Source: Octopus vulgaris
Taxonomy: Eukaryota
Reading direction: 5' to 3'
Assembly: GCA_951406725.2 (NCBI GenBank)
Contig: OX597814.1
Span: 19,034,001 to 19,098,000, forward strand
Length of the DNA stretch: 64,000 nucleotides
The position numbers and the translations under genes are program-made. Position 1 is the first letter of the stretch; every line of letters starts with the position of its first letter. Below, piece after piece: positions 11,125-46,398 of the stretch. The notes below the pieces were generated by a model that was given only the letters and a program-made list of their open reading frames with translations, had not been told where the DNA came from and searched no databases.

Positions 11125-11340
11125 AGATCGCCATGTTGATTCGCTAGCTTCTGCACGCATTTTTTTTCTCCTTGTTTCTCTCCGTGTTTCTTTTCTGTGT
11201 ATCTTTCTGTTGAAGAGCGTAGGCTCGAAACGTAAAAGACTTGTTTTATTTATATTCCTGAGCGCCATACTAATACAATTGTTTGTTTGTATTCCACCTG
11301 CCTTCGTCTTTTGTTTATTTTCATAAAGCTTCCCGTTATA
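11125..11340 (+). mobile_element. Short non-coding hammerhead-bearing element (family A) between (TA)n tracts
   Basis: Shared with 19570-19770, 36358-36500 and 46150-46398. Ends CTTTTGTTTATTTTCATAAAGCTTCCCGTT(ATA..). Confidence 0.85.
11202..11239 (+). ncRNA. Family A hammerhead, variant core CUGUUGA
   Basis: UCUUU-CUGUUGA-A-GAGC-guag-GCUC-GAAAC-GUA-AAAGA. Confidence 0.72.
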
Positions 11341-12805
11341 TATATATATATATATATATATATATATATATATATATATATATATATATATTACATAATT
11401 TCTCTCTATACATTTCCTTTGTTTTTATTCTGTGGTTTTCGTGCTCCATGTAAATATATCAATCAGCCCTAATTGTGTTTACATACCTTACTTCATCCAT
11501 ATCCGTGCGAGTTGGAGTTCTCTTAAATCCACCTTTGATGTCGTGGCCTTGCACAGGATACCGAAGTCGTAATTTAAGTTGAAAACTATCTGACCACTGC
11601 TGTTTTTTTCTATACTGTGCTTATTTAGCTCTCGCCTACTTATTGTAAGTATATGATTTTCATGTATGTCTACATATTTGTGTGTGTGGTTGTTGGTGCG
11701 AGCGTATTTATGTACGTATATATATATATATATATATATATATATATATATATATATATATATATATATATATATATATATATATATATATATATATATA
11801 TATATATATATATATATATATATAGATAGATAGATATAGATATGTATATACATATGTATGTGTGTGTGTACACAAGTGAATATACATAAATACACCCCCG
11901 TTTTGTTATGTGTGCATATATGTATGTGTGCGTGCGTGTGGTTGTGTAATGCTGTTTATATTTTGTATGAAGCTGACATCTGTGCTTTTCATTGCGTTCA
12001 TTCATACGACGCTTAATCAATGGATTTTCAGCAAATTGTTAATAAATCATTCCATATTCTCAGTTTTGTGCAGTTTATACTCTGTATACTGATTTATAGT
12101 TTTGGTTAGAGGTCAACTAGATTTATGTATATTCTTACGGCAATCTCAGCTTTCGCTTCGTCTGTCCAATATATTTGATGCCGTTCAAAGAATTCTTACA
12201 AATCCAACAATATGTTCAGATTTTTTAAACATCAAAAAGAAAAAAAAATGGCTTTTTTTTTCTATTTAAGTTGTTTAACCCAAGGTTTTTTTCTAATCCT
12301 GACAGAGCCAGCTAATGATCATAGGTGTTCTAAACAACAGGAATTCCGTATTTTTTTTTTTTTTTGTGCATACATGGACTACATTAAAGAATTCAATGAG
12401 ACAGACAGATGCGAATAGTAGAAGATTTGGCTGCTATTTCTCTCGGTGTCAACTGGAGCTTGGAATTTTGAACATTTTGGTATTGCTTTTTCTAGCACAC
12501 ACACATACATATGTATATACATATCTATATCTATATCTATCTATCTATCTATCTATCTATCTATATATATATATATATATATATATATATATATATATAT
12601 ATATATATATATATATATATATATAAATATATCTTCTATCTATCTATCTATTACGCACAAACTATCATATGTTTAAGACAAGTGAATAATTTATTACTCA
12701 AATGTTTTAATACCAAGATAGTTTGACACCAGATTTTACCTATTTCATATTACGAATAAAAGAAACCCATCATCAATTTCTTTAATTTTTATTATTTTAT
12801 TTTAG

Positions 12806-13766
12806 AAGTTAGCGGGGTGGATATCACAGAGGAAAGCCTAGATGGCTGTACCTGTCCATGGCCGCAGTCTAATGTCTGAAGCTAGTGAACAAGTACATGA
12901 GCCATGAAAGGTCTTACTCATTTATCGAGGGCTAAATATTGCTTATTCCCTGATTCATATTTCTGGTTTTATGTCGTCTATACTATCCGTCGAAAATTTG
13001 CTGTTACATCCGGTTTCCTCCAGACTGAGGGGAGGGAGAGAGAAATTTATCTTAAAACCAGAGACTGAGAGCGAATCTTTGCGAAAGTCTGAACTTAGCT
13101 GTCGACCACCAAGTTAACAAGACTTGTGGATAAGTCAACCTATTTTTTTATTACCCACAAGGGGCTAAACATAGAGGGGACAAACAAGGACAGATATAGG
13201 TATTAAGTCGATTACATCGACCCCAGTGCGTAACTGGTACTTAATTTATCGACCCCGAAAGGATGAAAGGCAAAGTCGACCTCAGCGGAATTTGAACTCA
13301 CAACGTTGCGCCAGACGAAATACCGCTAAGCATTTCGCCCGGCATGCTAACGATTCTGCCAGCTCGCCGCCATGTGGATAAGTCAACCGGTGAATAAAGA
13401 TTGTCATATATAAGACTATACGGCAAGTTCTCAACCAGGATAAATACTGCAAGACATCTAGTCTTAAATATCGTATACTGTACCATCTGAAACGATGAAG
13501 TAGATCAATTTATTAGAAAAAAAGAAGAACTAGATTTGGCGTTAAAAATCTTCCCAAGGATAAAATAACAGCAAATTTTCGACGGATAGTATAGACAACA
13601 TACAGCCAGAAATATGAATCAGTGAACAAGCAATATTGAGCCCTCGATAAATGAGTAAGATCTTTTTATGGCTCCTGTAGTTGTTCATTAGTTTCAGACA
13701 TTAGACTGCGGTCATGAACAGACACGCCATGTAGGATTTTCTCCGTGATATCCACTCCACTAACTT
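12806..13766. repeat. Long inverted repeat / foldback (arms ~12806-13006 and ~13566-13766)
   Basis: For example CTATACTATCCGTCGAAAATTTGCTGTTA vs TAACAGCAAATTTTCGACGGATAGTATAG; TCTTACTCATTTATCGAGGGCT vs AGCCCTCGATAAATGAGTAAGA. Confidence 0.9.
13141..13372 (-). mobile_element. SINE family 1 with 16-bp target-site duplication
   Basis: TGTGGATAAGTCAACC at 13125-13140 and 13373-13388. Confidence 0.93.
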
Positions 13767-14055
13767 TATTGATCATTGTTTATTGTATTATATATATTAT
13801 GAGGAAAAGGGATACGACTATATAGGCATATTTTGTTTTGGGATTTGGAACAAAAAGGAACGCAGTGTAAATAACGGACAGAGTCAATACTATTAAAAAG
13901 GGTGCAAGACACGCAACGAAAATTTCAGGAAAATAAAAATAAGAAATAATTAGAAATTTTACCGGCCAGTGTGTTACATTATAAGGCACAAAAAGAAAAT
14001 TACTCTCCCCAGACACAACAGAATATATAGACATGATTACACCAGTAATATATAG

Positions 14056-44340: not shown

Positions 44341-44445
44341 ATATAGATAGATAGACAGATAGATAGATAGGTAGATAGATAGATAGATAGATAGATAGAT
44401 AGATAGATAGATAGATAGATAGATAGATAGATAGATAGATAGATA
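44341..44445. repeat. (GATA)n microsatellite
   Basis: Direct reading. Confidence 0.97.
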
Positions 44446-46149
44446 TATGCCCATATATGAATATCGATATGTATACGCGTGTATATATGTGTGTGTGTGT
44501 GTTTGTGTTTGAATATATACAGGAATACATATGTTCGTATGTATGTATCTGTGTGTATGAGTGTGTCTGTATGTATGCATGTGTGTGTATGCACAACTCT
44601 CTTAACGAAATGAACTTGCTGACATATCGAATTCTCTACTGCTGTGCGAGTTTCATTTCGACAATTCGACCACGAGGCCACCCTGTACGCTGACACCTAC
44701 AATAAAAACAGCACCTTGGATGCTATCCTTATATACCACAAACATGTTGCCTTTTGGTTAGTATTCTATAAATATCTCTGACGGCTGATAAGTACATTTT
44801 ACCATTTCATCTTTGATGACCTTCTAAGCTTCAAATTAGAAGAAAAAGCAAATAAATATAATTTGTTATATAATTCTCCATTTGTTATGAAAATGCAAAG
44901 AAAAAAAATATGATATTCCTTTGTGTGTTTAAGTTCATTTGCCACAAAGTCGAATGTTACTAACACAGTTAAAATATAATCTTACTCATCCACCTCCTTC
45001 TCCACCTCATCTTCATCACCATCATCGTCGTCGTCATCATCATCACTGCCATCATCTTCATCACCACCATCATCATCACCACCATTATACTTATAACCAT
45101 TTTCACTACACCCTTCTCTATAATCATCGTCGTCGTTGTCGTCATCATCATCCTAATCCTCATCATCATAATCATGATCCTAATCCTCATCATCATAATC
45201 ATCATCAATTCCACCATCAGCATCGTTACAGATGTAATCATTCTCGACATTTACTTCATCTACTTCGACCACGTACTGAACAAGAACTGCGATATCACTC
45301 GAACCTTGTACCTATTGCACTCTGAGTAGCTAGCATGGCGATTATACCGTTACGTACATTTGTTTGTCAGATATTTCCAGTTTCACATTGAACCCATGAA
45401 ATAGTCAATCAACTATTATGTAATTTGATTTTATACTTAAGAACAAAAGTAAATCGCAAAATAAAAATTATCTGTGCACCTGTGCACTGTATAGAACAAT
45501 TTCTTTCATATATACATCAGCTATATGCGTGCGTGTGTCTCTGTGTGTCAGTGCGTGTGAGTGTACTTATATCAATCAAAACGTCGAGATATATATGTAG
45601 ATGTAAAAGAAAAAAGAGATAGATATGATGCACAGCAACTTAAATTAACAAAAATAAACAGCAAAAGTAAACAGTGTCCGAAATATCGTTAGAAAGTGAA
45701 GTATATATGTGCATGTGTATGTATATTTATATAACTCACAGAATTTTATTCAATATTTCCAACTGTGCTAAAATTGAATCTTTTTTTGTACCATTTATAT
45801 TGTATCTGTACTGTTTTAGAATCTACGATTTGATAATTTTAGCAGGGCTGTGTTCTTTTAAGTTCCGGATGTAGTATGAAAACGTTGTGTTTTTATCTTC
45901 AGTATACCTAAACAACGAAGTATGATTATAGTTATATGATATTATGATTATAGTAGCATTCTTTTATAGTTTTACTTCTGCTATTACTTTATTACGCTTA
46001 CAGTGTATCGTTCTGTTACGAATGATAGAAATATACACAAATAACAAAAGGCGAATTTTACGTTTTCTTCTGTGTGTGTATATATATATATATATATATA
46101 TATATATATATATATATATATATATATTATATATATATATATTTATATA

Positions 46150-46398
46150 TAACGGGAAGGTTTACGAAAATAAACAAAAGACGAAGGCAGGTGGAGTACA
46201 AACAAACAAATGTATTAGTATAGCGCTCAGGAATAGAAATAGAAAAAGTCTTTTACGTTTCGAGCCTACGCTCTTCGACAGAAAGGTACACAGAAAAAAT
46301 CAAGGAGAGAAACAAGGAGAGAAAAACATGCGCGTAGGAGCTAACGATCTATCATGGCGTCCAGACTTCGGACAGTGGTCAGACGCGAGAGGGAGATA
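46150..46398 (-). mobile_element. Family A element with hammerhead at 46249-46286
   Basis: Minus strand CUUU-CUGUCGA-A-GAGC-guag-GCUC-GAAAC-GUA-AAAG; ends in (TA)n. Confidence 0.85.

What the first reader, a model, noticed from the sequence alone, without database searches (positions are those of the whole stretch)
11125..46398. Family A: a multi-copy ~200-250-bp non-coding (TA)n-associated element with a fixed non-canonical hammerhead core CUGU(U/C)GA
Seen: four close copies (11202+, 19648+, 36457-, 46249-) and a divergent one (42051-) all have U at position 6, where the canonical core CUGANGA has A. Position 7 varies freely (U/C), as expected for N7. In the four close copies stems I and II pair (one G-U wobble, one shortened stem I) and GAAAC-GUA is intact. 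Three of the four close copies end with the same ..CTTCCCGTT terminus into (TA)-rich sequence; the 19570 copy is cut by a SINE. Inference: A6U was in the amplifying master copy, not decay. It is either a functional natural core variant or a ribozyme fold retained for another role, such as RT recognition, in a retrozyme/SINE-like passenger of Penelope elements.
Basis: partly seen in the sequence, partly recalled or inferred. Interest (0 to 1): 0.8.

Follow-up and report, generated by a model that had tools for sequence, protein, structure and literature searches.

The report
Octopus retroelement hammerhead with fixed A6U
Five scattered copies of a very abundant repeat, likely the tail end of a Penelope-type jumping gene in an octopus-like genome, carry a small hammerhead-shaped RNA in which one normally invariant catalytic-core letter is changed across the whole family, which is predicted to make it cut itself poorly even though its shape is kept.

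Summary
Confirmed. Five copies (5 pattern hits, 0 in 100 shuffles) carry a Penelope-type minimal type I hammerhead with U at core position 6. In four public runs (four studies, three organism labels), 3,283-14,954 contigs per run fit the element. None of the four lists an A at position 6 at the 2% threshold, while neighbouring N7 takes all four bases. A6U is therefore the family state, not decay.

The element is longer than 250 bp (at least ~280, probably ~450), has a fixed 3' end in (TA)n and a variable 5' end. Its ribozyme resembles those behind the ORFs of related Penelope-like elements (PLEs), which all have A6. It is most likely a PLE 3' pLTR/tail. No tandem copies, circle junction or parent ORF were found, so the retrozyme reading is unsupported. 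Published A6 mutants are weak, and U6 is predicted to pair with A15.1, so I favour a throttled ribozyme whose fold is kept. Cleavage is untested.

I found no natural A6U in nine paper searches (Lünse 2017 unavailable). The scan's earlier notes show other PLE core variants in other genomes, none for A6U. New variant of a known kind; interest 0.5.

The parts
11125..11337 (+). Copy 1, between (TA)n runs; hammerhead 11202-11239, core CUGUUGA at 11207, predicted cut after 11234
19322..19769 (+). Copy 2, the longest: CA-rich non-coding 5' part (start inferred), hammerhead 19648-19685 with core CUGUCGA at 19653, 3' end cut by another repeat
36359..36500 (-). Copy 3, 5'-truncated about 10 nt before the core; hammerhead 36457-36494, core CUGUUGA at 36489, G10.1-U11.1 wobble
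46151..46410 (-). Copy 4; hammerhead 46249-46286, core CUGUCGA at 46281, 4-bp stem I
41959..42170 (-). Copy 5, divergent subfamily (81-86% identical to the others); hammerhead 42051-42088, decayed (U6 plus G8A and broken GAAA)

Best explanation
These are copies of a very abundant repeat whose minimal hammerhead has U instead of A at core position 6 across the family; they are likely the 3' ends (pLTR plus tail) of a (TA)n-targeting Penelope-like retroelement, and the ribozyme is predicted to cut slowly or hardly at all while its fold is likely still under selection. Shown: family-wide U6, four-way N7, fixed 3' end about 103 nt past the cut site, variable 5' ends, TA flanks. Inferred mechanism: a PLE endonuclease nicks (TA)n, and the PLE reverse transcriptase starts at a fixed internal site downstream of the ribozyme, as shown in vitro for the anole element PAc. 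It copies through the uncut ribozyme and usually stops early, leaving 140-450-bp stubs. A6U would throttle cleavage by removing an A6 contact and by letting U6 pair with A15.1, which would spare the template. The remaining fold would be kept for residual protein- or dimer-assisted processing or for RNP assembly.
For:: 14,504, 14,954, 9,504 and 3,283 contigs were laid. The single T>A place counted per run is 19739, so none is at 19656. N7 shares: A 24-25%, G 8-13%, U 18-44%, C 24-50%. No shown row falls on C3-U6, G8, A9, 10.1, 11.1, G12-15.1 or 16.1. Hundreds of contigs per run share only the ribozyme and leave at 19649/50 and 19686/88, i.e. other subfamilies. The stem III palindrome shows C15.2>T and G16.2>A at 2.7-7.4% each, near equal in 3 of 4 runs, which would keep the palindrome if in phase. 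Cover falls steeply toward the 5' side. In 5 of 29 metagenome loci of a related PLE clade, a similar small minimal hammerhead lies 182-443 nt behind the ORF match on the sense strand; the 19.6-kb copy has about 330 non-coding nt before its core. In PAc, reverse transcription starts 111-118 nt after stem II begins (122 nt here), and hammerhead mutants do not affect insertion in vitro (PMC11167929). A6C and other CUGA-turn mutants are weak (PMC3088659, PMC7151607, PMC9901934). Predicted U6:A15.1 pairing in the isolated motif is 0.98 for U7 copies and 0.36-0.41 for C7 copies.
Against: No parent ORF was linked to the family: two protein searches with its translation found nothing, nhmmer of the family against 33 loci found nothing, and similarity to the neighbouring PLE remnant's 3' UTR is only borderline (2-10 of 300 windowed shuffles reach it; nhmmer misses it). 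Zero variable places among 12 core positions has P about 0.11 if the 23 of 136 shown variable places were uniform, so selection on the core is suggestive only. The contig table hides 8 of 48 rows and lacks an expected T>C at 19748, so it is incomplete. The paired 15.2/16.2 changes are not phased and could be CpG decay. In C7 copies, putting A at position 6 lowers the predicted open-core fold rather than raising it, and with 40/90-nt flanks no version folds well. No cleavage data exist for A6U itself.
Confidence: 0.5

Rival explanations
1. U6 is a fully working natural core variant: the motif cleaves as a dimer, with PLE protein or with Mn2+, about as well as ordinary PLE minimal hammerheads.
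For: The rest of the core, both stems, the extra nucleotide after A9 and the palindromic stem III are intact family-wide while N7 is four-way. Natural A6C keeps good activity in Mn2+ (PMC7151607). The PAc hammerhead cleaves only with protein (PMC11167929).
Against: In pairwise mutagenesis, CUGA-turn mutants were low and not rescued except by the 3:8 swap (PMC9901934, passages). A6C lowered Mg2+ cleavage of a mouse-gut hammerhead to 3.55e-6 per min against 0.3. All 56 representatives in Cervera Fig. S3 and all 9 hits in 29 related loci have A6; the former were found with an A6 descriptor.
Confidence: 0.2
2. The ribozyme is simply dead: A6U hitchhiked in a founder element, nothing selects the motif now, and the core looks intact only because the family is young or the alignment filter favours intact copies.
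For: Core invariance alone is not significant (P about 0.11). Naiads reach high copy numbers without canonical hammerheads (PMC8557442, passages). The 42-kb copy has decayed at G8, G12 and A13. No stem I or II covariation appears among the shown rows.
Against: N7 is the only shown place in 381 nt with all four bases, and it sits among unchanged neighbours. Subfamilies with different flanks keep the motif (loose ends).
Confidence: 0.2
3. It is a non-autonomous non-LTR retrozyme that cycles through circular RNA, and the dispersed copies are monomers shed from tandem arrays elsewhere.
For: No ORF within about 450 bp. Retrozyme monomers can be dispersed and derive from pLTRs (bioRxiv 10.64898/2026.07.22.740005).
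Against: 0 of 5 copies are tandem. The joints table lists skips only, with no 3'-to-5' joint, in 4 runs (the laid stretch lacked the last ~15 nt and contigs drop rare forms). The fixed 3' end with ragged 5' ends fits target-primed copying. The motif is of the minimal PLE type, which PMC7229834 separates from the canonical retrozyme type in Acropora (passages).
Confidence: 0.1

Closest known systems
Minimal type I hammerheads in pLTRs of Penelope-like elements (Cervera & De la Peña 2014, PMC4209133)
   Same: Short stem I, one extra nucleotide after A9, G10.1-C11.1, palindromic 15.2-16.2 with no loop III, U-rich 5' flank, massive dispersal as single truncated copies.
   Different: Core position 6 is U family-wide. 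The 56 listed representatives all have A6; the core variant described there is U3-A8.
PLE clade with a Cys linker before GIY-YIG (Nematis/Neptune-like, name recalled), metagenome loci L007, L010, L016, L018, L026
   Same: Small 3-5 bp stem II, sense orientation, 180-440 nt non-coding spacer before the ribozyme, pyrimidine tract before stem I.
   Different: All have A6; no nucleotide homology to this family was detected; no ORF is linked here.
Natural A6C hammerhead of phage Bcep176 (PMC3088659, PMC7151607)
   Same: A natural change at core position 6; weak in Mg2+, better in Mn2+.
   Different: C rather than U, a single phage example rather than a highly amplified animal retroelement family, and tested in vitro.
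Animal non-LTR retrozymes (PMC7229834; bioRxiv 10.64898/2026.07.22.740005)
   Same: Short, non-coding, type I hammerhead, tied to PLEs.
   Different: Defined by tandem repeats and circular RNA; neither was seen here.

Membership tests
PLE minimal type I hammerhead | Core CUGANGA with A6 | tested here: not met
   U6 in 5 of 5 window copies; no T>A row at 19656 in 4 of 4 runs
PLE minimal type I hammerhead | Stems I and II, extra nucleotide after A9, G10.1-C11.1, GAAA-N-N-UH with palindromic 15.2-16.2 | tested here: met
   4 of 5 copies pass the structural scan; the fifth is decayed
PLE minimal type I hammerhead | Self-cleavage (as dimer or protein-assisted) | not testable with these tools
   Only folding predictions and published mutant data
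Penelope-like element | Fixed 3' end with tail beyond the hammerhead, 5' truncation, microsatellite or AT-rich target | tested here: met
   Same end 130 nt from C3 in 3 copies and 124 nt in the divergent one; 4 of 5 end in (TA)n; 5' ends differ; cover falls 5'-ward
Penelope-like element | ORF with RT and GIY-YIG linked to this pLTR | tested here: inconclusive
   No genome held; no linked ORF; only borderline similarity to the 47-48.6 kb PLE remnant
Penelope-like element | Partial tandem or inverted pLTR arrangement | tested here: inconclusive
   None among 5 copies; only 64 kb and short contigs were available
Non-LTR retrozyme | Head-to-tail tandem repeats of 170-400 nt | tested here: not met
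   0 of 5 copies tandem; no end-to-start joint listed in 4 runs; limited sample
Non-LTR retrozyme | Circular RNA | not testable with these tools
   Only contigs, and no run on record as RNA

The most novel reading that the evidence does not exclude
The first natural hammerhead family with a working U6 core: a highly amplified Penelope-type ribozyme that breaks the textbook CUGANGA rule yet still cleaves, conditionally, as a dimer or with its retroelement protein or Mn2+, and is invisible to every A6-based genome search.
Probability: 0.2. Interest if true: 0.75.

Novelty: new variant of a known kind. Interest (0 to 1): 0.5.

Why it matters
What hammerheads do in Penelope-like elements is unresolved: they are widespread in the older clades, yet dispensable for insertion in vitro in PAc and missing in Naiads. 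A lineage that amplified massively with a core change expected to cripple cleavage, while keeping the rest of the fold, is a natural test of whether catalysis or shape is selected. Octopus-like genomes like this one also carry A6 families for comparison (three such motifs in this window). It further shows that descriptor searches fixed on CUGANGA miss whole high-copy families.

Tried and rejected
No whole genome is held, so no copy count or full-length consensus could be made.

Rfam at E<=1 gave 310 matches; the 150 listed were microsatellite-driven (149 miRNA models and one rox2), none a hammerhead, and 160 were not shown.

Exact DNA pattern scans with positions 6-7 left open found 0 matches in viral, metagenome and prokaryote contigs. 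Protein searches with the element's sense-frame translation found none at E<=0.01; that open frame is treated as chance. A word-based search with the neighbouring endonuclease remnant also found none; the profile library search did. The viral-contig search with the PLE alignment gave 4 weak RT hits; these were searched by nhmmer but left out of the hammerhead scan.

Expression: no RNA holder listed. X9 is only guessed to be RNA, so its 3,283 contigs are not taken as evidence of transcription. Summed depth was not used as a copy number, and the depth peak over the ribozyme may be contig overlap.

The idea that the 47.0-48.6 kb PLE remnant is the parent was dropped: 0 of 200 plain shuffles but 2-10 of 300 composition-preserving shuffles reached the score, post hoc, with no nhmmer hit. 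A branch-point/3' splice-site reading of the tail was dropped because the AG is not shared by all copies. Independent decay as the cause of U6 was rejected. Earlier-findings searches by sequence and place were empty.

Full report
Observation. BLAST, a structural scan and a pattern search all find the same five copies, with cores at 11207+, 19653+, 36489-, 46281- and 42083-. The pattern gives 5 hits against 0 in 100 shuffles. The four close copies read stem I, CUGU(U/C)GA, one extra A, a 4-bp stem II with a GUAG loop, GAAACGUA, stem I. They are 91-98% identical from the ribozyme to the 3' end; the fifth is 81-86% identical and has also lost G8 and the GAAA box. Three copies end at the same base, 130 nt from C3, in (TA)n; the divergent one ends 124 nt from C3 in (TA)n. 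The 5' ends differ: about 10 nt before the core at 36.5 kb, about 80 nt at 11.1 kb, about 120 nt at 46.4 kb, and probably 330 nt at 19.3 kb.

Family-wide state of position 6. No genome is held, so I used public runs. 21 of 24 listed runs hold the 214-bp element or part of it. I laid 4 of them (X1, X6, X2, X9; four studies, three organism labels) on 19400-19780 at 80% likeness and a 2% threshold; 14,504, 14,954, 9,504 and 3,283 contigs fit. Position 6 (19656) has no row, and each run counts exactly one T>A place, which is 19739. The neighbour N7 shows A 24-25%, G 8-13%, U 18-44% and C 24-50% by depth. This is also a technical control: changes next to position 6 are captured. None of the 40 shown rows touches C3-U6, G8, A9, 10.1, 11.1, G12-A14, 15.1 or 16.1. 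Hundreds of contigs per run match only the ribozyme and leave at its edges (X1: 416 and 124 before 19649/50; 75 and 367 behind 19686/88), one group resembling the 42-kb copy, so several subfamilies share the motif. Positions 15.2 and 16.2 change at 2.7-7.4% each, near equal in 3 of 4 runs, which would keep the stem III palindrome if in phase.

Limits of that test. These are contigs, not reads, and depth is not copy number. 8 of 48 rows are hidden. A T>C expected at 19748 (C in 4 of 5 window copies) is not among the shown rows, so the table is incomplete, at least toward its 3' end. Core invariance alone has P about 0.11. An A6 sister family with very different flanks and a share under 2% would be missed.

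What the element is. The genome is octopus-like: the best named relatives of a neighbouring PLE remnant are from Octopus bimaculoides. An O. vulgaris annotation lists 190 PLE families covering 6.83% of the genome, and its supplement never mentions hammerheads (part 1 of 3 of the text read, supplement searched). The motif meets the four extra features that Cervera and De la Peña list for PLE minimal hammerheads (PMC4209133; parts 1-2 of 4 and supplement parts 1-2 of 3 read). I fetched 29 metagenome loci of the neighbouring remnant's clade. A scan allowing one core mismatch gave 9 hits, all A6 (one a doubtful U3-A8 hit). Five lie on the ORF strand 182-443 nt behind the ORF match, with small stems II like this family's, and two lie in inverted stubs that run into the ORF start. 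This shows the architecture is that of a PLE 3' end; it does not show descent, since nhmmer finds no homology. In the anole element PAc, reverse transcription starts 111-118 nt after the start of stem II (PMC11167929, parts 1-2 of 4); here the end lies 122 nt after it. A (TA)n preference is reported for Naiads and microsatellite bias for Neptune (PMC8557442, passages). No ORF could be tied to the family, so autonomy is open.

How it likely works. Shown: every copy spans the predicted cut site and ends about 100 nt beyond it, so the copied RNA was intact at that site. Inferred: target-primed reverse transcription by a PLE protein at (TA)n from a fixed internal start, with early termination. For the ribozyme, published data argue for weak activity. 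Natural A6C cleaves at under 0.1 per min (PMC3088659, passages) and is strongly impaired in Mg2+ but not Mn2+ (PMC7151607, parts 1-2 of 4). CUGA-turn mutants were low and unrescued in pairwise mutagenesis (PMC9901934, passages); I saw no value for A6U itself. ViennaRNA predicts U6 pairing with A15.1 in the isolated motif (0.98 with U7, 0.36-0.41 with C7). The open-core fold rises from 0.01 to 0.35 with A6 in U7 copies but falls from 0.13-0.18 to 0.04-0.06 in C7 copies, and with longer flanks no version folds well, so this support is partial. PAc hammerhead mutants still insert in vitro, and Naiads thrive without canonical hammerheads, so losing cleavage need not stop amplification. The four-way N7 among fixed neighbours suggests the fold stayed under selection after A6U. 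I put a throttled ribozyme with a retained fold at 0.5, a working variant at 0.2, a dead hitchhiker at 0.2 and a circular retrozyme at 0.1.

Retrozyme test. 0 of 5 copies are tandem, and the joints table lists only skips, with short local duplications in the pyrimidine tract among the inserted-letter rows. The laid stretch lacked the last ~15 nt, and no run is on record as RNA, so this is a weak negative. Retrozyme definitions are from PMC7229834 (passages) and bioRxiv 10.64898/2026.07.22.740005 (parts 1-2 of 5; its supplements were not seen).

Novelty. Nine literature searches showed no natural A6U hammerhead and no octopus hammerhead study in their listings. The one work holding both 'hammerhead' and 'A6U' is about twister ribozymes (listing only). 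PMC11014351 has no A6U mention (passages); PMC6765202 was read in passages. Lünse et al. 2017, the most relevant survey of PLE hammerhead variants, is not held, and Repbase/Dfam could not be checked, so priority is uncertain. Earlier notes of this scan list other core variants in PLE hammerheads of other genomes and none with A6U; I did not test them.

Verdict. A real, family-wide, apparently unreported core variant of a known PLE ribozyme type, most likely in ordinary 5'-truncated PLE ends. It works like a PLE pLTR hammerhead element; it fails the canonical-core and retrozyme membership tests. Interest 0.5.

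Noticed in passing
window 4004-4310: Two canonical A6 minimal hammerheads of another family (cores 4080- and 4234+) in an inverted pair around a (TTG)n run, the usual inverted PLE stub; one has an ACGU and the other an AUAU stem III palindrome.
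   Followed up: partly
window 46670-46950: A third PLE-type stub between (TA)n runs with inverted ends, a canonical CUGAUGA core at 46796+ and a decayed stem III.
   Followed up: partly
window 47020-48330 (-): Decayed PLE body: end of RT, Cys linker and GIY-YIG with many stops, then about 600 bp of CA-rich 3' UTR with a TATA-like box near 47100, ending in (TA)n; best named relatives from Octopus bimaculoides. No callable hammerhead.
   Followed up: yes
window 141-1065 (+) and 59793-60203 (-): Mariner/Mos1-type transposase remnants (Pfam HTH_48, Transposase_1).
   Followed up: no
window 8719-9123 (+) and 54732-55070 (-): Two related frames that look like the C-terminal restriction-like endonuclease of a non-LTR element (recalled motif; no Pfam hit).
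   Followed up: no
window 19490-19570 and 19606-19637: Short sub-repeats in the element's 5' part and in its pyrimidine tract that vary in number between copies.
   Followed up: no
L007:4780-4830 and window 19585-19610: A short GCCC(C)UAC-type word before the U tract occurs both in a related PLE locus and in this family, but the TATA box seen upstream in L007 and L010 is not evident here; significance untested.
   Followed up: no
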